A stretch of DNA of 64,000 bases, taken from contig CAOJZZ010000002.1 of NCBI GenBank assembly GCA_948466315.1, forward strand, positions 3,700 through 67,699, given 5' to 3'. The notes below the pieces were generated by a model. That model was not told the origin of the DNA. It worked only from the letters and a program-made list of their open reading frames with translations, and ran no database searches. This DNA is from an uncultured Mycoplasmatota bacterium. Lineage in GTDB: Bacteria; Bacillota_I; Bacilli_A; RF39; UBA660. Positions 42,242 to 63,863 of this stretch are shown piece by piece. A program made the translations under genes and the position numbers. Numbering within the stretch: the first letter of the stretch is position 1; each line of letters starts with the position of its first letter.

Positions 42242-43063
42242 ATGCCCAAAGTAAGAAATAAAAAAAGAAAAGTTATTGATAAAAAGTGGTTGATTCTTTT
42301 TGTGATATTAGTTGTTGGTATAGGAATAGGATATATAGTATTTAATAAGTTTAATCTTAAACCAATATATAGTATAGATAGTCGTATTAATAATATAAAA
42401 AAAGAGCAAAAGAAAGATGAAAAAGACTATCGTACTATTGGATGGTTAAGAGTACAAGGAACTAATATCGATGCTCCAATTATTGGGTATAATACAAGGG
42501 GGGAGGAAGTTAATGTCACTAAAGATAATTATTTATGGAATGAAATTAATGAAAAAAAATTTTATAATAAAGTAAATATTATGGGTCATAATATTTTGAA
42601 TTTGTCTTCTACTCCTAGAGTTGGTGATGTTAATTTTTCTAGGTTTGATGATTTGATGGCCTTTGTTTATACTGATTTTGTTGAGGATAATAAATATATT
42701 CAATATACTGTAGATGGAAAAGATTATCTTTATAAAATATTTGCGGTGTATTTTGATTATCAGTTTAATTTGAACTTGTCTTATCAAGGTAATTATTCTA
42801 AAGATGATCTTTCTACATATTTAAAAAAAGTTAAGAAAAAGAGTATTTATGATTTTGATGTTAATGTAGATAGTGATGATAAAATTATTTCTTTGATAAC
42901 ATGTACTCGAATGTTTGGAGAAAATTCAACTTATGAATTAATTGTTAATGCCAGACTTGTTCATGAAAATGAGAAATATACAAATTATGATGTTGTAGAA
43001 AATAAAAATTATAAAAAAATAAAAAAAATACTGAAAGGTGATGAGGTAAATGATGAAGCATAA
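42242..43063 (+). CDS. Class B sortase
   Basis: N-terminal TM. Blockwise match to SrtB: TIGWLRVQGTNIDAPII, NIMGHNI (catalytic His), LYKIFAVY, IISLITCT (catalytic TLxTC-type Cys), ELIVNARLV (Arg). Confidence 0.75.
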   Translation: MPKVRNKKRKVIDKKWLILFVILVVGIGIGYIVFNKFNLKPIYSIDSRINNIKKEQKKDEKDYRTIGWLRVQGTNIDAPIIGYNTRGEEVNVTKDNYLWNEINEKKFYNKVNIMGHNILNLSSTPRVGDVNFSRFDDLMAFVYTDFVEDNKYIQYTVDGKDYLYKIFAVYFDYQFNLNLSYQGNYSKDDLSTYLKKVKKKSIYDFDVNVDSDDKIISLITCTRMFGENSTYELIVNARLVHENEKYTNYDVVENKNYKKIKKILKGDEVNDEA

Positions 43064-46048: not shown

Positions 46049-46525
46049 ATGAATAAAGGTATGTTAACAGTAGGTATAATTTTACTTAGTATAATATCAT
46101 TACTATTAATCAATGTATTGACTAACTATTCCACAGGGGGGGAATTGGATTACTATTTAGTAAAGGATACGACAGAAGCTGCAATGGCTGACGCTTTAGA
46201 TGTTGAATATTATCGTTTAAATTCTATGCAACGTATGGATAAGGAAAAATTTATTGAGAGTTTTTTAAGAAGATTTGCTGATGCAGTGGATAATACTCGT
46301 TCATATGAGGTTAAATTTTACGATATAAATGAAGTTCCTCCTAAAGTAAGTATTAAGGTTGATTCATTAACAGTTTTGAGCTTTGCACATGAGGCTGCTA
46401 ATATTTCAACCAATTTAGATGCTGTTTTAGAAACTGATTATAAGGCCGATACTTTTACAACTGCAAATCTTAGGGATCCAGATAGTGATGTTGGAAAAGC
46501 GATTGAAGCTAGAAAAATAGATTAA
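46049..46525 (+). CDS. Pilin-like / pseudopilin-like protein (158 aa)
   Basis: Short polar leader, Gly, then hydrophobic helix: MNKG-MLTVGIILLSIISLLLINVL. First gene of the Tad block. Confidence 0.4.
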   Translation: MNKGMLTVGIILLSIISLLLINVLTNYSTGGELDYYLVKDTTEAAMADALDVEYYRLNSMQRMDKEKFIESFLRRFADAVDNTRSYEVKFYDINEVPPKVSIKVDSLTVLSFAHEAANISTNLDAVLETDYKADTFTTANLRDPDSDVGKAIEARKID

Positions 46526-46554: not shown

Positions 46555-47361
46555 ATGGGAAATTTAACTTTAGGTATAAAAAAGTTTTTTACAAATAAGA
46601 ATACTGTTACTGTTGTTGGGGTTGTTCTTGCGATAGTTATTCTTTATGTAGCATATAATATGAGGGTTAGGTCAGCTGTTAATCCAGTTAATGTACCTTA
46701 TGCAAAACAATTAATTCCAGCTGGGACACAAATTACAGCAGATATGGTAGGAACACGTGCTGTTCCTCCATCAATGCTTGAAGGAGATGTTTTGACAAAT
46801 CAGAGCAATGTTATTGATAAATATTCGGCAGCAGATACAGTTATACCAGCTGGTAGTTTGTTTTTTACTCGTAATGTTGTTGAACAAGAACAGTTACCAG
46901 CAAATATTATTTTAGATTATCCGAAAGGTTATGTTTTATATAATATGTCAGTAAATACAGAGATTACTTATGGTAATTCTATTTATCCAGGTAATTATAT
47001 TGATATTTATTTGAAGGCAGTTAATAAAGTTGGGGAGGCTGAAACAATGACTGCTGATGATGATAAAATCATGTTAGGTAAGTTAGTTGCTAATGTTAAA
47101 GTATTAGCTGTTAAAGATTCTAGTGGTCAACCAGTATTTTCTAATTTAGATGAACAAAGAACACCTGCAATGGTTGTGTTTGCAGTACCTGAGGAATATT
47201 ATATTTTATTAAAGAAGGCTGAATTTTTAAGAACCTATGATTCAACATTAATTCCAGTACCAACTAATGAGAGTTTGAAGGATGAGCCAGGTGATTTAGA
47301 GATTAGTAGTGAACAGTTAAAAGAGTGGATTAATAAAGTAACAATTTGGACTGAAACTTAG
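46555..47361 (+). CDS. CpaB/RcpC-like Flp pilus assembly protein (TM + SAF domain)
   Basis: N-terminal TM, then a SAF-like segment VPYAKQLIPAGTQITADMVGTRAVP. Sits immediately upstream of the secretion ATPase, as in monoderm tad loci. Confidence 0.55.
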   Translation: MGNLTLGIKKFFTNKNTVTVVGVVLAIVILYVAYNMRVRSAVNPVNVPYAKQLIPAGTQITADMVGTRAVPPSMLEGDVLTNQSNVIDKYSAADTVIPAGSLFFTRNVVEQEQLPANIILDYPKGYVLYNMSVNTEITYGNSIYPGNYIDIYLKAVNKVGEAETMTADDDKIMLGKLVANVKVLAVKDSSGQPVFSNLDEQRTPAMVVFAVPEEYYILLKKAEFLRTYDSTLIPVPTNESLKDEPGDLEISSEQLKEWINKVTIWTET

Positions 47362-47392: not shown

Positions 47393-48910
47393 ATGAATGA
47401 AAGTATCTTTGATAAGTTAGATTTTGGACCATTTAGAGCTTTATTAGATGATGACGATATTACGGATGTTTCTTATGATAATAATGGTCAGATTTGGGTA
47501 CGTTCATTAACGCAAGGCTCTATGAGAGTAGAGATTGATGGAGCTACTCCAGAGTTCGTTGAGAAGCTTGCTTTTCAATGTTCTAATGTTATGGGTACGA
47601 CATTTAATAATGCTAAACCATTTTTGGATGCAGAATCTGCTGAACTTCGTCTTAATTTCGTTCATCAATCTATTGCTACTAATGGAATAGCCTTGGTTAT
47701 TCGTAAAACTCCTGCTAAAATTCGTTTGGAGAAAGATAAGTTAATTAAAGATGATTATTTTACTAATGAAATTCACGACTTTTTAATAAAGTGTGTGGAA
47801 GGGCATTGTAATATTATGGTAGCAGGAGAGACTGGTTCTGGAAAAACAGAATTTGTTAAGTATTTGGCCAGTCATACTAAAACAAATGAAAAAATTATTA
47901 CTATTGAGGATACTTTGGAACTTCATTTGGATAAGATATTTCCACAGCGTGATATTGTTTCAATGAAAACTAATAATGTTGCTAGTTATAGTGATGTGTT
48001 AGTTACATGTATGCGTCAAAATCCTAAGTGGATTTTGCTTTCAGAAGTTCGTAGTGCAGAGGCTGTTTCAGCTGTACGTAACTCTATATCTTCAGGACAT
48101 AATATTTTATCTACAATTCATGCTGACAAGGCAGCTGCTATACCATATCGTCTGTATAGTTTGATGGAAACTGATCTTGATGTTAATCAGTTTTTGACAA
48201 CTATTTATCGTTATATACAACTTGGTGTTCATATTAAGGCTTATTATAGTAAAGAATATGGAAAATTTCATCGTGAGTTAGATGAAGTAACAGAGTTTTA
48301 TGTTGATGATAATAATGGGCTTCAATCTAGAACTATTTATAAAAAAATCTTTGGTCATTCTCCAGCTATGCGTAAACCTAGTGAACATTTACAAGAGTAT
48401 CTTTCTAATCAAAATATTGATGTAAGTAGTATAGTTGAAAAATTGCCTGAAGAGTTTCCTTTTAAGGAGCAAGGTACAGATGAGGATAATGACTCTTCTA
48501 ATGATGTTTCTACTGATAATGGTGTTGCTGCTAGTTCTTTAAATCAGCCTTTGGAGAGTGTTGATTCAAAAGCAGTTAGTAATGATAGTACTACTGATAA
48601 TAATGATTCTTCTCTTATATCTAGTGTTTCTACTCAACAAAATGTACCTGTTACTTCTCAACCAGTAGTTAGTTCTATATCAGCTGGTTCTTTTGTACAA
48701 GATCAAGCCCAACAAATTACTCCAGTAGTTGCTGCTTCTTCGCAACCTGTTGTACAACCAGTTCAGTCACCTCAACAAGTTCAAACTTCCCAAATTGCTC
48801 AATCAGTACAGCCTGTGCAGCAAGTAGAAGGGATTACTTCAGCTAATGTTAATTTGCAGCCAGTAGTTATGCAGGAGATTACTAGATTAGATAATGAACC
48901 AAGTGGATAG
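47393..48910 (+). CDS. TadA/CpaF-family secretion ATPase (T2SSE/VirB11 superfamily) with low-complexity C-terminal tail
   Basis: Walker A AGETGSGKTE, Asp box IITIEDTLEL, Walker B NPKWILLSEVR, His box STIHA. The last ~145 aa are S/Q/V/P-rich. Confidence 0.8.
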   Translation: MNESIFDKLDFGPFRALLDDDDITDVSYDNNGQIWVRSLTQGSMRVEIDGATPEFVEKLAFQCSNVMGTTFNNAKPFLDAESAELRLNFVHQSIATNGIALVIRKTPAKIRLEKDKLIKDDYFTNEIHDFLIKCVEGHCNIMVAGETGSGKTEFVKYLASHTKTNEKIITIEDTLELHLDKIFPQRDIVSMKTNNVASYSDVLVTCMRQNPKWILLSEVRSAEAVSAVRNSISSGHNILSTIHADKAAAIPYRLYSLMETDLDVNQFLTTIYRYIQLGVHIKAYYSKEYGKFHRELDEVTEFYVDDNNGLQSRTIYKKIFGHSPAMRKPSEHLQEYLSNQNIDVSSIVEKLPEEFPFKEQGTDEDNDSSNDVSTDNGVAASSLNQPLESVDSKAVSNDSTTDNNDSSLISSVSTQQNVPVTSQPVVSSISAGSFVQDQAQQITPVVAASSQPVVQPVQSPQQVQTSQIAQSVQPVQQVEGITSANVNLQPVVMQEITRLDNEPSG

Positions 48911-48924
48911 AAGGGAGTAAATTT

Positions 48925-49827
48925 ATGTTTTTAGAAGAGTTAATAATAATTATTGTATTAGTAGTAGGTATATTTTTATATAGAAATTATCAAGGTCAAA
49001 ATGTAGGTAAATATATTACTAATCAGGCACAACAGTTATATGATAGATTTGCTCCATATTCTTTTAAAGTAGTAAGAGATAAAACTAAACAATTAGGACA
49101 AGAATATACGCCTAGACAATATTTAATTCAAGTTTGTGTTATAGCTGGTTTTACTGGTGTTGTTACCTATCTTTATTTTTATAATTTGATTATTAGTATA
49201 TTTTATATGATTGTTGCTGTTATGTTTGTTCCTTATTTATCTTATTTACGTTGTAAAAGAATATATAGTGAATTTTTATTTGAACAGGTACAAACATATA
49301 CATCAAACGTTATTATGGAATTTGCTACAACACAATCTTTTGTTAAATCTTTAGAAGGTGTTAAAAATTCTGGAGTATTGGAAGAACCTGTACTTAGTGA
49401 TGTACAAATGATGATTGATATGGCATATGAGAATGGTACTATTGATGAGGCAATTAATTTTATGAGTACAAAGTATCCATATTATATAGTTAAAAATATG
49501 CATAATTTATTTTTACAAATTACTAAAGAAGGTGCTCAAAATTCAGCGGATTCTTTAGATAATATGCAATTAGATATTGATATGTTGATTGAGAGTGTAT
49601 ATAGGGATAGAATTGAACGTGCTTCTTTTCATAAATCTTTTTTGCAATTTGGTGTTATGTTATATTTGATGGTAATGTTAGTGCAATATTTGTTAGGTAG
49701 AGAAACATATTTGGTATTATTAGAGCGATGGTATATTCAAGTTTTATTGCATGGTGTTATAATTGTTAATACATATTTCCTATTAAAAGGAGAAAAATAT
49801 TATAATGAGAATGTAGGTGCTGAGTAA
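48925..49827 (+). CDS. TadB-like platform protein (T2SSF-type)
   Basis: Topology: N-terminal TM, TM pair, ~140-aa soluble domain, two C-terminal TMs. Follows the ATPase. No motif-level confirmation. Confidence 0.5.
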   Translation: MFLEELIIIIVLVVGIFLYRNYQGQNVGKYITNQAQQLYDRFAPYSFKVVRDKTKQLGQEYTPRQYLIQVCVIAGFTGVVTYLYFYNLIISIFYMIVAVMFVPYLSYLRCKRIYSEFLFEQVQTYTSNVIMEFATTQSFVKSLEGVKNSGVLEEPVLSDVQMMIDMAYENGTIDEAINFMSTKYPYYIVKNMHNLFLQITKEGAQNSADSLDNMQLDIDMLIESVYRDRIERASFHKSFLQFGVMLYLMVMLVQYLLGRETYLVLLERWYIQVLLHGVIIVNTYFLLKGEKYYNENVGAE

Positions 49828-50636
49828 TGGAGATAGTAATTATTGGGGCAATTATTATATTTATTTTAGTATATAATAATACTATTGATAAGAATAAGTT
49901 TTTTGCTGATAATGAGAAGTATCTTCAACTTATTCGAGAAGAGGATTATACATTTTTGGTATATGCAAAATATGGTGAGACAGTTGATGCTGATCAGTTG
50001 TATATGAAAAGAGTAACTTCATCTATAATTTTATTCTTCATTGTCTTAGCTTTTTCATTGAGTAGTAGTTCAGGAGCCAATATTATTAATTCGCAGTTTT
50101 TGCTTAATTTATTATTTGCTACTGTTGCGGCATTTGGTATGTTTAAAATTTCATATATGCAGTTGAAGTCATTTTATAAAGCTCATTTACATGAAATAGA
50201 TATAATGTTGCCATACTATTTAAAGAGTCTGGAAATTTTAATTCAGCATTATACTGTTCCTGTTGCTTTAGGTAAATCAATAGATGATGCTCCAGATATA
50301 TTTAAACCTGGTCTTAGAAGAATGATAGATCGTATTAATGATGGTGATGCTTCGATAGAACCATATATGGAATTTGCTAATACTTATCCAGTTAGAGATT
50401 CTATGCGTATGATGAGACTTCTTTATCGTTTAGGTATTGGTTCACAAGAAAAGAAACAAGAGCGTTTAATGATGTTTTCTAAGACAGTTTCTAATTTACA
50501 AAATAAGGCTAGAGAGACAAAATATAAAGAAAGACTTAATCATATGGAAAGTCAGACTATGATTATGTTAGTTGTAACAGGAATTGGAGTAATGCTTATT
50601 ATTTTGATTTCAATGTTGATGATGTTTAGTATGTAA
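49827..50636 (+). CDS. TadC-like platform protein (T2SSF-type)
   Basis: Same topology class as the preceding gene. Start overlaps its stop (ATGA-type coupling). Confidence 0.5.
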   Translation: MEIVIIGAIIIFILVYNNTIDKNKFFADNEKYLQLIREEDYTFLVYAKYGETVDADQLYMKRVTSSIILFFIVLAFSLSSSSGANIINSQFLLNLLFATVAAFGMFKISYMQLKSFYKAHLHEIDIMLPYYLKSLEILIQHYTVPVALGKSIDDAPDIFKPGLRRMIDRINDGDASIEPYMEFANTYPVRDSMRMMRLLYRLGIGSQEKKQERLMMFSKTVSNLQNKARETKYKERLNHMESQTMIMLVVTGIGVMLIILISMLMMFSM

Positions 50637-50652
50637 AAAAAAAACAAAAATA

Positions 50653-50681
50653 TTGTTAAATTAATTAAATTTTGTTATAAT
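50653..50681 (+). promoter_or_regulatory. Near-consensus sigma-A promoter in front of the small pilin gene
   Basis: TTGTTA (50653-50658), 17-nt spacer, extended -10 TGtTATAAT (TATAAT at 50676-50681). Confidence 0.6.
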
Positions 50682-50713
50682 GTAATTATCATATAGAAAG
50701 GATGTGGAGATTA

Positions 50714-50875
50714 ATGAAGGCAGCTACAGGTGAATTAAATTTAACTGTTATTACTATAATTGCAATAGCAGCAATAATTGGGTTTTTCTGGATGATGTGG
50801 CCAAAAATTCAAGTGTCTATTAATACTCAATGGGAAAATATTTCTGGTACATCAATGATAGTAATTGAAAGATAA
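50714..50875 (+). CDS. Flp-like small pilin (53 aa); absent from the supplied ORF track
   Basis: ATG at 50714 preceded by AAAGGATGTGGAGA; TAA at 50873. MKAATGELNLTVITIIAIAAIIGFFWMMWPKIQVSINTQWENISGTSMIVIER: short leader, Gly, hydrophobic helix, short tail. Sits between the TadC-like and pseudopilin-like genes. Confidence 0.6.
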   Translation: MKAATGELNLTVITIIAIAAIIGFFWMMWPKIQVSINTQWENISGTSMIVIER

Positions 50876-50888
50876 TGGGGTGTAGTTA

Positions 50889-51380
50889 ATGAGTAATGCT
50901 TTTGGAGGACTTTTAAATATTGTATTAATTGTTTTATTTCTAGTTTTAGTTTCTGGATATTTGGCATTCAATGTTAATTATACGAAGGCTTTTAGAGTTA
51001 AAAATAAAATTATATCTACATATGAGCAGTATGAAGCTTCATGCAATTCAGGTAGTAAATGTGCTACTATTATTAATGATTATATGAAAAGTTTAGGTTA
51101 TAGTACTGATCATCCAAATAAAAGTGGTTCTTGTCTTAATACTGGGGCTGCTACTGGTGAAGTTGGTGGTAGTTGGGAATGTAGGACAGGCTATTGTATT
51201 TGTAGAGTTAAAGTAGATGCTAAAAGAGCTGGTGATGTTAGAAAAGATACTAGGGATAGAGTCTATTATAAAGTTGTAACGCAAATTAATGTTGATATAC
51301 CTATTATTAATAAAATTATGCCTAGTTTACGTATATTTCAAGTAAGGGGTGATACGAAACAGATAATATTACCTGAATAA
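50889..51380 (+). CDS. TadE/TadF-like pseudopilin (163 aa, 6 Cys)
   Basis: MSNAFGG-LLNIVLIVLFLVLVSGYL N-terminus followed by a globular domain. Confidence 0.45.
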   Translation: MSNAFGGLLNIVLIVLFLVLVSGYLAFNVNYTKAFRVKNKIISTYEQYEASCNSGSKCATIINDYMKSLGYSTDHPNKSGSCLNTGAATGEVGGSWECRTGYCICRVKVDAKRAGDVRKDTRDRVYYKVVTQINVDIPIINKIMPSLRIFQVRGDTKQIILPE

Positions 51381-51403: not shown

Positions 51404-52423
51404 TTGAATGTAATTATTTCTAATAAACAACAAAATCAACTTTCTAAATTAGATATTGATGTTATTAAAAATATTTCAGGTGTATATCAAGTAAATGAAC
51501 TTGTAGAAATGTTTAAGAACTTTTTTTATAATAGAATGATTTTGGATGTTACTGCAATTTCTGGATATACTGATATTAGTAAATTTAAGATTATAGCAAA
51601 AGAATTAGATGTAGAGAAGATTATTTTTCTTTTACCTGATGGTAGTAGACTATGTACATCTAGTTTTTTGGCTGATTTGATATCTCTTGGAATATATAAT
51701 TTTACTACTAGTATTGATGGTATTAAATATTTATTAAAAAAGGTTAATAAATATGAGGATGTTGTTCATATTCAAAAACAGGCTCAAAAGGAAGCAAAAG
51801 TAGAAAATGAAAATATTGGACAAAATGTAGTTGTTTCTGATGAAAATGCTTTTAAAGGTCCTAGAATTATAGGTATTAGAAATGCTACGGATAGTGCAGG
51901 AGCAACTACTTTTATTTATATGTTGAAAAGTGAGTTGCAAAAGTCTGGTTTTAATGTTATTTCTATTGAACTTGATAAAAATGATTTTCAATATTTTAAT
52001 GATAAAACTATGCTTTCTATTACAACTAATAATTTACAAAATACTATAAAGCAACATTCTTCTGTAGATATTGTTTTTATTGATATTAATAATTTGAAAG
52101 ATTTAAGTATTTGTTCAGATGTTTATTACTTGTTAGAACCTAGTATTATTAAATTAAATAAATTAGTTAAAACACATCGTTATCTTTTAGAAAAGTTAAG
52201 AGGTAAAAAAGTGGTTCTTAATAAAAGTTTACTTTCTACTGGTGATATTAGTGATTTTGAGAAGGAATCTGGTCTTAAGATTATTTTTAATATGCCTCCT
52301 TTAGATGAAAGAAAAAGAAATCCTATTGTTCGTGATTTTTTGATAAGTGTTGGAGTACTTTCACAAGGTAATACTCAATCTGGAAACGAAAATAATCGAA
52401 TTTTTGGGTTATTTAGACTTTAA
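51404..52423 (+). CDS. TadZ/CpaE-like protein with degenerate P-loop
   Basis: N-terminal ~120-aa domain plus a ParA/MinD-like C-terminal half. RIIGIRNATDSAGATTF occupies the place of the KGGxGK(T/S) Walker A. Confidence 0.4.
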   Translation: MNVIISNKQQNQLSKLDIDVIKNISGVYQVNELVEMFKNFFYNRMILDVTAISGYTDISKFKIIAKELDVEKIIFLLPDGSRLCTSSFLADLISLGIYNFTTSIDGIKYLLKKVNKYEDVVHIQKQAQKEAKVENENIGQNVVVSDENAFKGPRIIGIRNATDSAGATTFIYMLKSELQKSGFNVISIELDKNDFQYFNDKTMLSITTNNLQNTIKQHSSVDIVFIDINNLKDLSICSDVYYLLEPSIIKLNKLVKTHRYLLEKLRGKKVVLNKSLLSTGDISDFEKESGLKIIFNMPPLDERKRNPIVRDFLISVGVLSQGNTQSGNENNRIFGLFRL

Positions 52424-61559: not shown

Positions 61560-63863
61560 ATGAAATTTAAATTTAGAACAGATTCGCATGATTTAGCGGT
61601 TTTTGTGGCATTTGCTATTTTTCTACTTTATATAGTGTGTCTAGGTGTAGTTAATTTATCTACTTTTGCATCAGAAGGAGTTTTATCTGGATTTAATCCA
61701 TTTCCTGCTTTTTCTCCTGAGTATTTAAAAACTACGTTTATTCTTTACTTTTTATGCTTAGTTTGCTTTTTTATTAGTGTAAGTTCTTATTTCTTTGATA
61801 GAGAGAAGGGAATTGGTTTTACAACTGATAAAAAGGATAAGGGATATTCTAGATGGGCAAAGGATAAGGAGATTAAGCAAGAGTTAGAAAGAGTTGGAAT
61901 TTTAGAAGAAAATATTAGTTGTGCAGGAGTTCCATTAATTTTAAATAGTGATGAAATGTGGGTAGATAATAGTGAGTATCATTCTTTAATTATTGGTGCT
62001 ACTGGTTCTGGTAAGACTCAAACTGTTATTTTACCAATGGTTCATAGTTTAGCTAAAGCTAGGGAATCTATGATTATTACTGATCCTAAAGGTGAAATTT
62101 ATGAAAAGACAAGTATGATGCTTAGGGATCGTGGTTATCAGATTTTACTTCTTAACTTCCGTGATCCGCAAAATGGTAATGCTTGGAATCCAATGACTTT
62201 ACCATATAGAATGTATCAGGAAGGTAATCAAGATAAAGCAATTGAGTTATTAGACGATTTGGCTTTGAATATTTTGTATGATGAATCTAATAAAAATGCT
62301 GATCCTTTTTGGGAAAAAACTTCAGCTGATTATTTTTCTGGTGTTGCTTTAGGTCTTTTTGAAGATGCTAAGGAAGAAGAAATTAATATTAATAGTATTT
62401 CTTTAGCTACTACAGTAGGTGAAGAGAAATTTGGTGGGTCTACTTATATTAAAGAATATTTTGGTTTTAAAGATCCAGGAAGTGCTGCTGCTATTAATGC
62501 ATCTAGTACTATTATGGCACCTACAGAAACAAAAGGAAGTATTTTATCTGTTTTTAAACAAAAGGTAAAATTATTTGCTTCTCGTGATAATTTGAGTGAA
62601 ATGCTTTCTCATAGTGATATTGACTTGGAAAGTATAGGTGAAAAGCCTACAGCGGTTTTTATAGTAATTCAAGACGAAAAGAAGACTTACCATTCATTAG
62701 TTACTATCTTTTTGAAGCAGGTTTATGAAACATTGATTGCTGTTGCTCAAAAGAATGGAGGCTCTTTACCTGTTAGAACTAATTTTTTGTTAGACGAGTT
62801 TGCTAATATGCCACCGTTAAAAGATGTTACTACTATGATTACAGCGGCTCGATCTAGAAAAATTAGATTTACAATGATTGTACAAAACTTTGCACAGTTA
62901 GATTCTGTTTATGGAAAAGAAGATGCTGAAACTTTAAGGGGTAACTGTGGTAATTTGATTTATTTAGTTACAACTGAGTTAAAGGCATTGGAAGAGATTT
63001 CTAAGATGTGTGGTGAGGTAAAGTCTAAAAAAGATGATAAGACAGCTTCAACACCACTAGTTACAGTATCTGATTTACAAAGAATGAAACAGTTTGAAGT
63101 TATTATTTTAAGAATGCGGAAGCAACCATTTAAGACTAAGTTTACACCTTATTATAAATTAGATTGGGGTAGGACTTATCCTAAAGCAACTTATCCAACA
63201 AGGGTTAAAGAGGAAGTTCATACATTCGATATTAAGGAGTATGTAAAAACACAAAAGAAAAAGAAATTATTAGAAATGATGAACTCATCTGATGGTAGTT
63301 CGAAAGAGATGATGGGTGGTAATCCATTAGATTCTATGGCTAAGATGAATTCTGTTTCTGGAATGCCTCCTATGGATCCAAGACGATTAATGCAACAAGG
63401 GAATATGCCTTTTCCACCATCAGATGATGCTAAATTACCAGACTTTTTGACTCGACCTGATAATGGTAGTGTTGTTCATCCTGGTAATGATAGTTTTAAT
63501 TCTTCATTTAATCCTCCTTTTAAACCTCGTAAGAAAGAACATGAGGATATGAGTTTTAATATTGATGACTTAGTAAAAAAGATTGATGCTAAGATTGCAG
63601 AGCTTGAAGAAGAAGAGAGACAAAATAAGAAGAGAGAAGAAGAGAGGAAAAAGTCAATTTCACAAAATGATATGGAAAAGACTGATAAGGTTTTAGATGA
63701 TGATTCAATAAAAAAAGAAGTTTTGGATTCTTTTGATGATACAGTAGATGATAAAGATAAATTAAATACTTCACAGGAAAAAGCATCGATTAATTATGAT
63801 TTAAATTTAGACGATGAAGAAGATGATGATGATGATTTCTTTGATGATTTTTTTGATAATTGA
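61560..63863 (+). CDS. VirD4/TraG-type type IV coupling protein with long disordered acidic C-terminal tail
   Basis: Two N-terminal TMs, Walker A IIGATGSGKTQ, Walker B FLLDEFANMP, MIVQNFAQL. The last ~220 aa are low complexity, ending DDEEDDDDDFFDDFFDN. Confidence 0.8.
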   Translation: MKFKFRTDSHDLAVFVAFAIFLLYIVCLGVVNLSTFASEGVLSGFNPFPAFSPEYLKTTFILYFLCLVCFFISVSSYFFDREKGIGFTTDKKDKGYSRWAKDKEIKQELERVGILEENISCAGVPLILNSDEMWVDNSEYHSLIIGATGSGKTQTVILPMVHSLAKARESMIITDPKGEIYEKTSMMLRDRGYQILLLNFRDPQNGNAWNPMTLPYRMYQEGNQDKAIELLDDLALNILYDESNKNADPFWEKTSADYFSGVALGLFEDAKEEEININSISLATTVGEEKFGGSTYIKEYFGFKDPGSAAAINASSTIMAPTETKGSILSVFKQKVKLFASRDNLSEMLSHSDIDLESIGEKPTAVFIVIQDEKKTYHSLVTIFLKQVYETLIAVAQKNGGSLPVRTNFLLDEFANMPPLKDVTTMITAARSRKIRFTMIVQNFAQLDSVYGKEDAETLRGNCGNLIYLVTTELKALEEISKMCGEVKSKKDDKTASTPLVTVSDLQRMKQFEVIILRMRKQPFKTKFTPYYKLDWGRTYPKATYPTRVKEEVHTFDIKEYVKTQKKKKLLEMMNSSDGSSKEMMGGNPLDSMAKMNSVSGMPPMDPRRLMQQGNMPFPPSDDAKLPDFLTRPDNGSVVHPGNDSFNSSFNPPFKPRKKEHEDMSFNIDDLVKKIDAKIAELEEEERQNKKREEERKKSISQNDMEKTDKVLDDDSIKKEVLDSFDDTVDDKDKLNTSQEKASINYDLNLDDEEDDDDDFFDDFFDN

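What the first reader, a model, noticed from the sequence alone, without database searches (positions are those of the whole stretch)
50653..50875. Unannotated 53-aa pilin gene with its own near-consensus promoter, sharing a Gly-then-hydrophobic N-terminus with two neighbouring proteins
Seen: the supplied ORF track misses an ORF at 50714-50875 (MKAATGELNLTVITIIAIAAIIGFFWMMWPKIQVSINTQWENISGTSMIVIER). It has an RBS and an upstream TTGTTA-17nt-TGtTATAAT promoter, and sits exactly between the TadC-like and pseudopilin-like genes. Three proteins in the locus share the same N-terminal design: MKAATG|ELNLTVITII (50714), MSNAFGG|LLNIVLIVLF (50889) and MNKG|MLTVGIILLS (46049). Established: Flp/Tad pilins are 50-80 aa with a short leader cleaved after Gly, followed by a hydrophobic helix. 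Pilin genes are typically the most strongly expressed genes in tad loci. Inference: this is the major pilin, and the other two are minor pilins processed at the same Gly. The canonical Flp G/xxxxEY motif is not present, so this may be a divergent pilin class.
Basis: partly seen in the sequence, partly recalled or inferred. Interest (0 to 1): 0.6.

Follow-up and report, generated by a model that had tools for sequence, protein, structure and literature searches.

The report
Undescribed small pilin of gut Bacilli
A 53-codon gene that gene finders tend to skip is real, transcribed and almost unchanged across an uncultured lineage of small-genome gut bacteria. It most likely encodes the main fibre subunit of a Tad-like pilus built next to a DNA-transfer machine, but it fits no described pilin family.

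Summary
The ORF at 50714-50875, its promoter (-35 at 50653-50658, TG plus -10 at 50673-50681) and the three quoted N-termini are all present as described.

The gene is real. It has more than 845 homologues, and synonymous-only variation in codons 2-14 across 73 distinct genes. It occurs in 31 of 35 sampled genomes of the window's own taxonomic family and in 1 of 265 other Bacilli. The promoter is conserved in about 80 loci. Mouse-gut metatranscriptome contigs cover the gene, mostly starting just after that promoter.

The gene sits in the flp position of a conserved chromosomal cluster. The order is DUF5411, CpaB-like, FlaI/CpaF-type ATPase, two polytopic membrane proteins, this gene, one or two 150-aa proteins and a TadZ-like protein. 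VirB6, VirB3, VirB4 and VirD4 follow.

M1, K2, G6 and E7 are invariant family-wide, and the C-terminal tail is hypervariable. The next gene shares the M-[KR]-[DE]-[AS]-x-G start.

It fails Flp_Fap, TadE and the PilFind rule. The neighbours' models match no solved pilin. The locus has no prepilin peptidase; the genome's only one is PilD-type, on another contig.

Verdict: probable major pilin of a new family. Cleavage at Gly6 is plausible but unproven. Two earlier follow-ups on other genomes reached the same reading.

The parts
50653..50658 (+). -35 hexamer TTGTTA of the pilin gene's own promoter
   Evidence: TTG(T/A)(T/A)A is conserved at 17 nt from the -10 in about 80 orthologous loci.
50673..50681 (+). 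Extended -10, TGtTATAAT
   Evidence: TGnTATAAT is conserved in nearly all loci. RNA contigs start at 50694 (X5), 50709 (X4), 50729, 50734 and 50782.
50696..50702 (+). Shine-Dalgarno GAAAGGA, 11 nt before the ATG. This long spacing is conserved.
   Evidence: (G)AAAGGA plus 10-12 nt plus ATG recurs in the loci. Upstream in-frame GTG or ATG starts are not conserved.
50714..50875 (+). 53-aa candidate major pilin (P0001)
   Evidence: Searches show a conserved family. Searches show it is transcribed.
50714..50731 (+). Codons 1-6, MKAATG: putative six-residue class III-type leader ending in invariant Gly6
   Evidence: M1, K2, G6 and E7 are invariant, and A4 at least 90% conserved, in 42 diverse members. 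A two-residue insertion is tolerated before G-E in P0269. Cleavage is inferred, not shown.
50732..50800 (+). Codons 7-29, ELNLTVITIIAIAAIIGFFWMMW: hydrophobic helix with conserved polar residues E7, N9, T11 and T14
   Evidence: There is one predicted transmembrane segment. Sub-threshold matches to archaeal Pilin_N and to the class III signal model TIGR04205 fall here.
50801..50875 (+). Codons 30-53: conserved P30 and the I..IN.QW.NIS motif, then a hypervariable tail
   Evidence: Tail length and composition vary widely. Some members carry Thr/Pro linkers or 30-50-aa Cys-rich domains. 50814 T>A (V34E) is a strain variant seen in the RNA runs.
50889..51380 (+). 163-aa minor-pilin-like protein, co-transcribed with the pilin gene
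   Evidence: Single RNA contigs span 50709-51360 and beyond. The family consensus is M[RK][DE][AS]xG plus a helix plus NYTKAF[RK][VM]KN. The AlphaFold model (pLDDT 83, pTM 0.73) has helix 3-47, helix 57-69 and four strands. There is no Pfam hit and no significant PDB fold match.
46049..46525 (+). 158-aa DUF5411 protein, first gene of the pilus module and a possible further pilin-like subunit
   Evidence: PF17424 at 2.9e-45. The N-terminus is MNK[G/A/S]-hydrophobic. The model (pLDDT 80) has helix 3-48, two helices and three strands. There is no PDB fold match.
46555..47361 (+). CpaB/RcpC-like protein (SAF plus RcpC domains, all below curated cut-offs)
   Evidence: PF16976 at 28.5 bits against a cut-off of 28.8. 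TIGR03177 pilus_cpaB at 3e-11, 43.1 bits against a cut-off of 71.
47393..48910 (+). Secretion ATPase of the FlaI/CpaF (archaeal/Tad) type, with a long Ser/Gln/Val/Pro-rich tail
   Evidence: PF00437 at 5e-28. The nearest solved structures are FlaI (2e-19), CpaF (6e-17) and archaeal GspE (4e-15), ahead of VirB11 (1e-13) and PilB (2e-9).
48925..50636 (+). Two polytopic membrane proteins (300 and 269 aa) in the TadB/TadC position
   Evidence: Topology is TM, 2 TM, a roughly 140-aa soluble domain, then 1-2 TM. They are weakly alike (hhalign E 1.3e-3, probability 19%). Neither matches T2SSF, the genome's own PilC or any PDB sequence.
51404..52423 (+). 339-aa TadZ/CpaE-like protein (weak ParA-type match only)
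   Evidence: PF13614 AAA_31 at E 0.008, below cut-off. Its position after the pilin-like genes is conserved.

Best explanation
The ORF encodes the fibre subunit (major pilin) of a lineage-specific Tad/archaeal-type type IV filament machine. That machine belongs to a family of uncultured, small-genome gut Bacilli whose records are titled 'Mycoplasma sp. CAG:877', 'Ca. Faecimonas', 'Tenericutes' and similar.

Shown:
- The gene is real, conserved and transcribed, mostly from its own conserved extended -10 promoter and together with the next gene.
- It occupies the flp slot after an archaeal/Tad-type ATPase and two platform-like membrane proteins.
- Its N-terminal 14 residues are essentially frozen while its C-terminal tail is hypervariable, as in pilins.

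Inferred:
- The protein inserts with Lys2 inside the cell.
- The genome's single A24 prepilin peptidase (PilD/ComC type, encoded elsewhere beside pilC) cuts after Gly6 of the short, type IVa-length leader M-K-x-A-x-G.
- The mature 47-residue subunit begins with Glu.
- The ATPase and platform extract it from the membrane and stack the hydrophobic helices in the filament core. Glu7, Asn9, Thr11 and Thr14 would make the inter-subunit contacts that Glu5 and Tyr6 make in Flp pili, and the variable tail would lie on the surface.
- The 150-aa proteins, and perhaps DUF5411, carry the same kind of start and would prime or tip the fibre.
- Because the module is fused to a VirB4/VirB6/VirD4 transfer system in one conserved chromosomal cluster, the fibre probably serves cell-to-cell contact for that system.
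For: - Gene reality: more than 845 homologues at 90% clustering, 508 clusters at 50% and 152 species representatives. Variation in codons 2-14 is synonymous apart from one Thr/Ser substitution at codon 5.
- Distribution: 113 of 151 genomes of the order with a narrow profile. With a broad profile, 31 of 35 genomes of the family against 1 of 265 other Bacilli. Tandem second copies are common.
- Synteny is fixed across loci.
- The ATPase is nearest to FlaI and CpaF. CpaB-like matches are weak.
- The promoter is conserved in about 80 loci.
- RNA contigs in four metatranscriptomes of one study (X1-X4) and one more run (X5) cover the gene. They begin 6-94 nt after the predicted start site, and the intergenic gap is empty in most runs.
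- M1, K2, G6 and E7 are invariant. The 150-aa family shares M[KR][DE][AS]xG, with only Ser or Ala replacing Gly.
- In the genome, the strict N-terminal motif hits only these adjacent genes among real membrane-protein genes.
- 12 of 42 members give sub-threshold hits to archaeal Pilin_N that start at Gly6. Six hit the class III signal model TIGR04205.
- One PilD-type A24 peptidase is present in 149 of 151 genomes of the order.
- The neighbour's model has a 45-residue N-terminal helix plus a beta-sheet.
- From my own knowledge, not checked here: the Bifidobacterium breve tad locus likewise keeps tadV elsewhere.
Against: - No pilin model reaches its threshold. Flp_Fap and TadE give nothing, and Pilin_N scores 14 bits against a cut-off of 25.
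- The PilFind cleavage rule is not met by any of the three proteins, yet it is met by five canonical pilins of the same genome. Their leaders (...NNKG|F-x-L-x-E) look quite different.
- Glu at +1 with no acidic +5 residue matches no pilin processing site I know of (own knowledge, not searched here).
- The 'leader' residues are as frozen as the mature part, which is unusual for a discarded peptide.
- The order-wide N-terminal flank MKEATGE is not net positive.
- The A24 peptidase is universal whether or not the locus is present, so its presence says nothing specific.
- The platform genes show no detectable T2SSF homology.
- Foldseek finds no solved pilin like the neighbours' models.
- One low-depth RNA contig crosses the promoter, and all RNA evidence comes from assembled contigs.
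Confidence: 0.6

Rival explanations
1. It is the pilin, but it is not cleaved: a leaderless pilin. Counting from Ala3, Glu7 falls at +5 (A-A-T-G-E-L against the Flp A-T-A-I-E-Y). The frozen N-terminus would then be the mature helix tip itself, and the machine would need no prepilin peptidase.
For: - Residues 1-14 are uniformly invariant, with synonymous-only change in codons 2-14 apart from one Thr/Ser substitution at codon 5.
- No A24 peptidase is encoded in the locus here or in related loci.
- Glu7 is invariant.
- The site fails the PilFind cleavage rule.
Against: - Gly6 is invariant. In the 150-aa family the matching Gly is replaced only by Ser or Ala, the residues allowed at -1 of class III sites (rule quoted from PMC3244431).
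- The 150-aa proteins have no acidic residue at the matching position.
- P0269 tolerates a two-residue insertion before G-E, which would shift the register.
- I know of no precedent for an unprocessed type IV pilin (own knowledge, not searched here).
Confidence: 0.15
2. It is a small, single-pass membrane subunit or regulator of the Tad-like/T4SS machine that does not polymerise. The fibre, if there is one, would be made of the 150-aa proteins or of the VirB2-like 'T4SS_pilin' proteins further downstream.
For: - No pilin family is matched at threshold.
- The N-terminal flank is not clearly positive.
- Some Gram-positive tad loci are proposed to use TadE-like proteins as subunits (PMC3244431).
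- Two T4SS_pilin-like genes lie 1.6 kb downstream, at sub-threshold E-values of 0.027 and 0.0022.
Against: - It has its own strong, conserved promoter ahead of a tiny gene.
- Tandem duplication with divergent tails is common.
- Hypervariable, sometimes Thr/Pro-rich or Cys-rich tails sit on an invariant helix. That is the pattern of an exposed, abundant structural subunit rather than a machine part.
Confidence: 0.15
3. It is a substrate or partner of the sortase-like enzyme in the same cluster, or an exported peptide. K-A-A-T-G-E followed by a hydrophobic stretch resembles an LAxTG/LPxTGE sorting signal.
For: - A sortase-domain gene lies at 42242-43063 (PF04203, 8.7e-8), and no C-terminal sorting signal is seen in the neighbouring proteins.
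- 5 of 42 members give faint LPXTG_anchor hits (best E 0.2).
Against: - The motif sits at the extreme N-terminus, so cleavage would release only five residues.
- Thr5 varies to Ala or Ser.
- The 150-aa proteins share the Gly but not the Thr-Gly pair.
- The LPXTG_anchor hits are far below threshold.
Confidence: 0.04
4. It is not a gene, only a chance ORF in AT-rich intergenic DNA.
For: It is only 53 codons long in 27% G+C DNA. Promoter-like sites are no more frequent in the region than chance.
Against: Hundreds of conserved homologues, synonymous-only change (bar one Thr/Ser substitution) in codons 2-14, fixed synteny and RNA coverage.
Confidence: 0.01

Closest known systems
Flp/Fap pilins of Tad (type IVc) pili, e.g. 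Caulobacter PilA, Aggregatibacter Flp1 and Bifidobacterium breve Flp
   Same: - A tiny subunit of about 50 aa: one hydrophobic helix plus a short tail.
- The gene lies directly after the two platform genes and before the pseudopilin-like genes.
- The machine has a CpaF/FlaI-type ATPase and CpaB- and TadZ-like neighbours.
- As in B. breve, the peptidase is not in the locus (own knowledge).
   Different: - No Flp_Fap HMM match, no G/xxxxEY motif, and Glu directly after the Gly.
- A six-residue leader instead of the longer Flp leaders (13 or more residues in those I recall; own knowledge).
- No short TadV-type peptidase anywhere in the genome, only a PilD type.
- The platform proteins are not recognisable as T2SSF.
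Archaeal type IV pilins with class III signal peptides (Pfam Pilin_N PF07790, TIGR04205)
   Same: - A short charged leader, small residue at -1, no requirement for Glu5, and a very hydrophobic N-terminal helix.
- These are the only models that recur among family members: 12 of 42 hit PF07790 and 6 of 42 hit TIGR04205.
- The ATPase's best solved relative is archaeal FlaI.
   Different: - All matches are below threshold (about 14 bits against 25).
- No charged residue at -2.
- The host is a bacterium.
Tad-like pilus cluster of the uncultured gut Clostridia order TANB77 (PMC11680825)
   Same: A clade-restricted, conserved Tad-like cluster in uncultured gut Firmicutes. Its pilin-like genes were recognised only by position, topology and partial fold similarity.
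   Different: - It belongs to a different lineage, and its pilin-like proteins are 143-236 aa.
- No 50-aa subunit and no attached T4SS are described there.
Thin type IVb pilus of IncI conjugative plasmids (R64, TP114; PMC9045228)
   Same: A type IV pilus encoded together with a conjugative T4SS and used for mating contact.
   Different: - It is plasmid-borne in diderm bacteria, with PilS/PilV pilins of ordinary size and canonical processing.
- Here the cluster is chromosomal and lineage-wide, in a monoderm.

Membership tests
Flp/Fap pilin (Pfam PF04964) | Match to the Flp_Fap profile | tested here: not met
   No hit for P0001 at E up to 0.1. PF04964 is not among the 25 families listed (of 37 found) for the 42 members at E up to 10. 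Only 2 members touch PF16982 Flp1_like, at 0.031.
Flp/Fap pilin (Pfam PF04964) | G/xxxxEY processing and Flp motif (Glu +5, Tyr +6) | tested here: not met
   The sequence reads G6-E7-L-N-L-T-V. Residue +5 is Thr and +6 is Val.
Flp/Fap pilin (Pfam PF04964) | Small size and position after tadB/tadC, before tadE/tadF-like genes | tested here: met
   Members are 47-107 aa. The order is fixed in all loci examined. The TadB/C identity of the upstream genes is itself only positional.
Flp/Fap pilin (Pfam PF04964) | Dedicated short TadV/CpaA-type prepilin peptidase | tested here: not met
   There is no A24 domain in the window and no GxGD polytopic protein in the cluster. The only A24 enzyme per genome is 250-290 aa and, in the window's own genome, has an N-terminal Cys motif.
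Bacterial type IV pilin (class III signal peptide, PilFind rule of PMC3244431) | [GAS]-x4(uncharged)-[DE] followed by 14 or more uncharged residues within the first 35 residues | tested here: not met
   The regex is false for the ORF, the 163-aa protein and DUF5411. It is true for five canonical pilins of the same genome.
Bacterial type IV pilin (class III signal peptide, PilFind rule of PMC3244431) | Short leader with a basic residue, Gly at -1, and a single TM helix immediately after | tested here: met
   MKAATG is followed by 22 uncharged residues. K2 and G6 are invariant.
Bacterial type IV pilin (class III signal peptide, PilFind rule of PMC3244431) | Cleavage by an A24 aspartyl peptidase, and polymerisation | not testable with these tools
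   This needs protein chemistry. A PilD-type enzyme is available in the genome.
Archaeal type IV pilin N-terminal domain (Pfam PF07790) | Profile match over the gathering score | tested here: inconclusive
   12 of 42 members hit, with a best E of 0.0075. The matches score 13.9-14.2 bits against a cut-off of 25.2 and start at Gly6, which aligns to profile position 8.
Tad / archaeal-type type IV filament machine | CpaF/FlaI-clade ATPase | tested here: met
   FlaI 2e-19, CpaF 5.8e-17, archaeal GspE 4e-15, ahead of VirB11 and PilB. TIGR03819 at 1.5e-30.
Tad / archaeal-type type IV filament machine | T2SSF-family platform proteins (TadB/TadC) | tested here: not met
   No PF00482 hit, no PDB sequence hit, and hhalign against the genome's own PilC gives probability 2% or less. 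Only the topology and position fit.
Tad / archaeal-type type IV filament machine | CpaB/RcpC-type protein | tested here: inconclusive
   PF16976 scores 28.5 bits against a cut-off of 28.8. TIGR03177 gives 3e-11 but 43 bits against a cut-off of 71.
TadE/TadF pseudopilins (Pfam PF07811), for the 163-aa neighbour | TadE profile match or a pilin fold | tested here: not met
   No Pfam or NCBIfam hit. The model has a 45-residue N-terminal helix plus a four-stranded sheet (pLDDT 83), but the best Foldseek PDB E-value is 0.82. The profile search against PDB sequences is empty.

The most novel reading that the evidence does not exclude
The cluster is a single, vertically inherited organelle of genome-reduced gut Bacilli. 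In it, an archaeal/Tad-type filament built from a new pilin class is functionally coupled to a conjugation-type T4SS (VirB4, VirB6, VirD4). The pilin class has the signal M-K-x-A-x-G followed by Glu, cut by the housekeeping PilD or not cut at all. This would be the first mating or DNA-exchange pilus of a monoderm T4SS, or a contact device of a host-dependent bacterium.
Probability: 0.3. Interest if true: 0.8.

Novelty: new variant of a known kind. Interest (0 to 1): 0.55.

Why it matters
These bacteria are common in human, mouse, rabbit and ruminant guts, have 0.8-1.5 Mb genomes and are uncultured. Almost all of them keep this cluster, so it probably matters for how they live.

A pilin family that every current model and rule misses means pilus content is under-called in gut metagenomes.

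If the fibre works with the adjacent T4SS, it bears on an open question. Monoderm conjugation systems are thought to lack a pilus (own knowledge), so how they make cell contact is unclear.

The Gly-Glu start would also extend what prepilin peptidases are known to accept, or reveal a pilin that needs none.

Tried and rejected
- BLASTN of the 7.5-kb module against plasmids found nothing.
- A profile of the small protein against PDB sequences returned only chance transmembrane-helix hits.
- Two seemingly informative variants were dropped. P0140 carries a canonical KG|QTLVEY Flp leader grafted on, and P0181 has a 45-aa extension ending at the aligned Gly. Both come from contigs under 800 nt. The P0140 contig has coverage 0.59 and is visibly chimeric.
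- Cross-tabulating the A24 peptidase against pilin presence was uninformative. The peptidase is in 149 of 151 genomes regardless.
- The attempt to show that the 300- and 269-aa proteins are TadB/TadC by Pfam, PDB sequence search and hhalign failed.
- Foldseek searches of both neighbour models found no pilin.
- A literature search found nothing on this system or on DUF5411 function.
- The positive-inside rule was considered as a topology test and rejected. Canonical pilins of the same genome also have strongly basic segments after the helix.
- The loose 'short leader, Gly, hydrophobic' pattern is common in the genome, with 87 hits. It is therefore no evidence on its own.
Full report
**Observation**

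The window holds an ORF at 50714-50875 that translates to MKAATGELNLTVITIIAIAAIIGFFWMMWPKIQVSINTQWENISGTSMIVIER. An ORF list with the usual 60-aa floor would not show it. At 40 aa it appears from an upstream ATG at 50702.

TTGTTA (50653-50658), a 17-nt spacer and TGt-TATAAT (50673-50681) lie upstream, with GAAAGGA at 50696-50702. The neighbours begin MSNAFGGLLNIV... (50889) and MNKGMLTVGI...

**Is it a gene?**

Yes.
- A search of clustered public proteins gave 845 homologues.
- A profile search of 1.8 billion representatives gave 508 clusters at E <= 1e-3.
- 152 species representatives carry it. Their records are titled as uncultured gut 'Bacilli', 'Tenericutes', 'Mycoplasma sp. CAG:877' or 'Ca. 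Faecimonas'.
- Among 73 distinct orthologous genes, codons 2-14 each use 2-5 synonymous codons, with a single Thr/Ser substitution at codon 5. Selection therefore acts on the peptide.
- In-frame upstream starts (MYVL..., MWEL...) are not conserved, so Met at 50714 is the start.

**Promoter and transcript**

Promoter-like sites in this AT-rich region are no commoner than in shuffles (53 against 48.2 +/- 6.5), so the single match proves nothing. However, TTG(T/A)(T/A)A-17-TGnTATAAT recurs 25-55 nt before the ATG in about 80 loci, while the surrounding spacer has diverged.

The RNA evidence comes from mouse-gut metatranscriptome contigs:
- In four runs, contigs covering the pilin gene start at 50709, 50729, 50734 and 50782 and run on through the next gene. 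Upstream contigs stop at 50507-50578.
- A run from another study starts at 50694.
- One low-depth contig (50639-50831) crosses the promoter. Some read-through or DNA carry-over therefore exists.
- These are assembled contigs, so depth is only indicative. The pilin contig is the deepest of the locus in 3 of 4 runs.

**Context**

The gene order is fixed in every locus examined:
1. Ig-like surface protein
2. Sortase-domain protein
3. A roughly 990-aa Cys-rich protein
4. DUF5411
5. CpaB-like protein
6. ATPase
7. 300-aa membrane protein
8. Roughly 265-aa membrane protein
9. The small gene, sometimes in two tandem copies
10. One or two 150-aa proteins
11. TadZ-like protein
12. Two T4SS_pilin-like proteins
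13. TrbL/VirB6
14. VirB3-like protein
15. Split VirB4
16. SpoIID-type hydrolase

In the window, a VirD4-type coupling protein follows (PF02534, 1e-56). Housekeeping genes follow immediately after that. I saw no integrase.

The ATPase is closest to archaellum FlaI (2e-19), Caulobacter CpaF (6e-17) and an archaeal GspE. These rank ahead of VirB11 and far ahead of PilB. The CpaB-like match is just under threshold.

The two membrane proteins have a TadB/TadC-like topology. They resemble each other only weakly (hhalign E 1.3e-3, probability 19%) and show no detectable homology to T2SSF, to the genome's own PilC or to any solved protein. 'TadC-like' is therefore a positional label.

**Distribution**

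- With a narrow profile, the family is in 113 of 151 near-complete genomes of the order.
- With a broader profile, it is in 31 of 35 genomes of the window's own taxonomic family and in 1 of 265 other Bacilli. That one genome carries the whole cluster.
- It sits on contigs of up to 700 kb.

This is a vertically kept trait of a lineage with 0.8-1.5 Mb genomes, not a sporadic mobile element.

**Anatomy of the protein**

Across 42 diverse members, M1, K2, G6 and E7 are invariant. A4, N9, T11 and T14 are at least 90% conserved. The order-wide form is MKEA(T/A/S)GE(L/A)N(L/M)TV....

A single hydrophobic helix runs to about residue 29. Then come Pro30 and the motif I..IN.QW.NIS in this subclade. The tail after that varies freely in length and composition. 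It includes Thr/Pro-rich linkers and 30-50-residue Cys-rich modules. A frozen N-terminal helix with a hypervariable exposed end, together with tandem paralogues, is the evolutionary pattern of major pilins.

**The shared N-terminus**

The 150-aa family downstream begins M-[RK]-[DE]-[AS]-x-G. Gly6 is at least 90% conserved there and is replaced only by Ser or Ala. These are the residues allowed at -1 of class III signal peptides, according to the rule quoted in PMC3244431. One paralogue even begins MKAATGN.

DUF5411 proteins begin MNK[G/A/S] in this clade and M[KR]ESxWG in others. This is similar in kind but not in register.

In the window's own genome, a strict version of the motif hits 5 of 19,126 start sites. 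The small gene and its neighbour are the only real membrane-protein genes among them. The loose version is common, with 87 hits.

**Peptidase**

Nothing in the cluster looks like an A24 peptidase. The genome has one such enzyme: a 254-aa PilD/ComC-type protein with an N-terminal Cys motif, next to pilC on another contig. 149 of 151 genomes of the order have an A24 enzyme, nearly all exactly one, whether or not they have the cluster.

The same genome has at least five canonical pilins, with leaders ...NNKG|F(T/S)L(V/I)E. The new proteins have leaders of type IVa length but a different sequence, with Glu, Gly or Ser at +1 and no acidic +5.

**Membership**

- Flp_Fap and TadE give no match.
- The PilFind rule is not met by any of the three proteins.
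- The most recurrent model among members is archaeal Pilin_N: 12 of 42 members, best E 0.0075, about 14 bits against a cut-off of 25, starting at Gly6. Next comes the class III signal model TIGR04205, with 6 of 42.
- The AlphaFold model of the 163-aa protein (pLDDT 83, pTM 0.73) has a 45-residue N-terminal helix, a second helix and four strands. DUF5411 (pLDDT 80) is similar, with three strands.
- Both have the general 'lollipop' pilin design, but Foldseek finds no solved structure at E < 0.1.

**Mechanism**

The most likely reading is that the small protein is the main subunit of a Tad/archaeal-type filament.
- It would be made in excess from its own promoter and inserted with Lys2 inside the cell.
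- The resident PilD-type peptidase would cut it after Gly6.
- The FlaI/CpaF-type ATPase would then polymerise it.
- The 150-aa proteins would act as minor subunits.

The gene, its conservation, its transcription, its position and the shared motif are shown. Insertion, cleavage and polymerisation are inferred.

A real alternative is an uncleaved pilin in which Glu7 takes the place of Glu5 (counting from Ala3). This would explain why the 'leader' is as frozen as the helix. A non-polymerising machine subunit cannot be excluded either.

**Link to earlier notes**

Two earlier follow-ups on orthologues in other genomes (e1-3386360, e1-3534120) reached the same reading. They are not independent evidence, but I re-derived their main points here. 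I added:
- the RNA data;
- the family-wide invariants;
- the motif shared with the neighbouring gene family;
- the peptidase census;
- the PilFind test;
- the neighbour models.

**Verdict**

This is a new pilin-like family within a known kind of machine. It is moderately interesting in itself, and more so if the fibre proves to work with the adjoining DNA-transfer system.

Noticed in passing
window 42242-43063 and 50717-50734: A sortase-domain gene (PF04203, 8.7e-8) sits in the same cluster, with no visible C-terminal sorting signal nearby. The pilin's K-A-A-T-G-E plus hydrophobic stretch resembles an LAxTG/LPxTGE signal, and 5 of 42 members give faint LPXTG_anchor hits (E >= 0.2). This is probably coincidence, because the motif is N-terminal and is not shared by the 150-aa proteins.
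   Followed up: partly
window 50696-50716 and the orthologous loci: The Shine-Dalgarno AAAGGA(G) is kept at an unusually long and constant distance (10-12 nt) from the ATG in nearly all loci. Some gene callers instead pick a GTG directly after it, giving MYVLMKAATG....
   Followed up: partly
L091-L096 (e.g. L094:5821-6066, L096:5839-6381): In other genera of the order the small protein carries a 30-50-aa Cys-rich C-terminal module (CC..GG..C..C) and often occurs as two tandem paralogues. Four of 42 members hit PF12669, FeoB-associated Cys-rich membrane protein (best E 8e-6).
   Followed up: partly
window 61560-63863 and contig C2 beyond the window: A VirD4/TraG-type coupling protein (PF02534, 1e-56) and a 407-aa ORF close the cluster. 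DedA-like, RmuC-like and TrpRS genes follow directly. No relaxase or integrase was recognised, so what the T4SS transfers is open.
   Followed up: partly
window 47393-48910: The FlaI/CpaF-type ATPase has a roughly 145-residue Ser/Gln/Val/Pro-rich C-terminal extension. Its length varies from 363 to 737 aa among orthologues.
   Followed up: no
L104 (G162:C76:1-18000): One genome assigned to a different family of the class carries the complete cluster, with pilin MKEASGELNMTVIT.... The cause could be lateral transfer, mis-binning or a taxonomic edge case.
   Followed up: partly
window 50814, 50341, 51347: All mouse-gut RNA runs that cover these places show the same three differences from the window. 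50814 T>A changes Val34 to Glu, the commoner residue in relatives. The runs therefore hold a sister strain rather than the assembled one.
   Followed up: no
genome contigs C5, C6, C9, C48, C50, C16: The same small genome also keeps a canonical type IV pilus/competence set. It has at least five or six pilins with ...NNKG|F.L.E leaders, one of them 591 aa long, plus PilC and PilD.
   Followed up: partly
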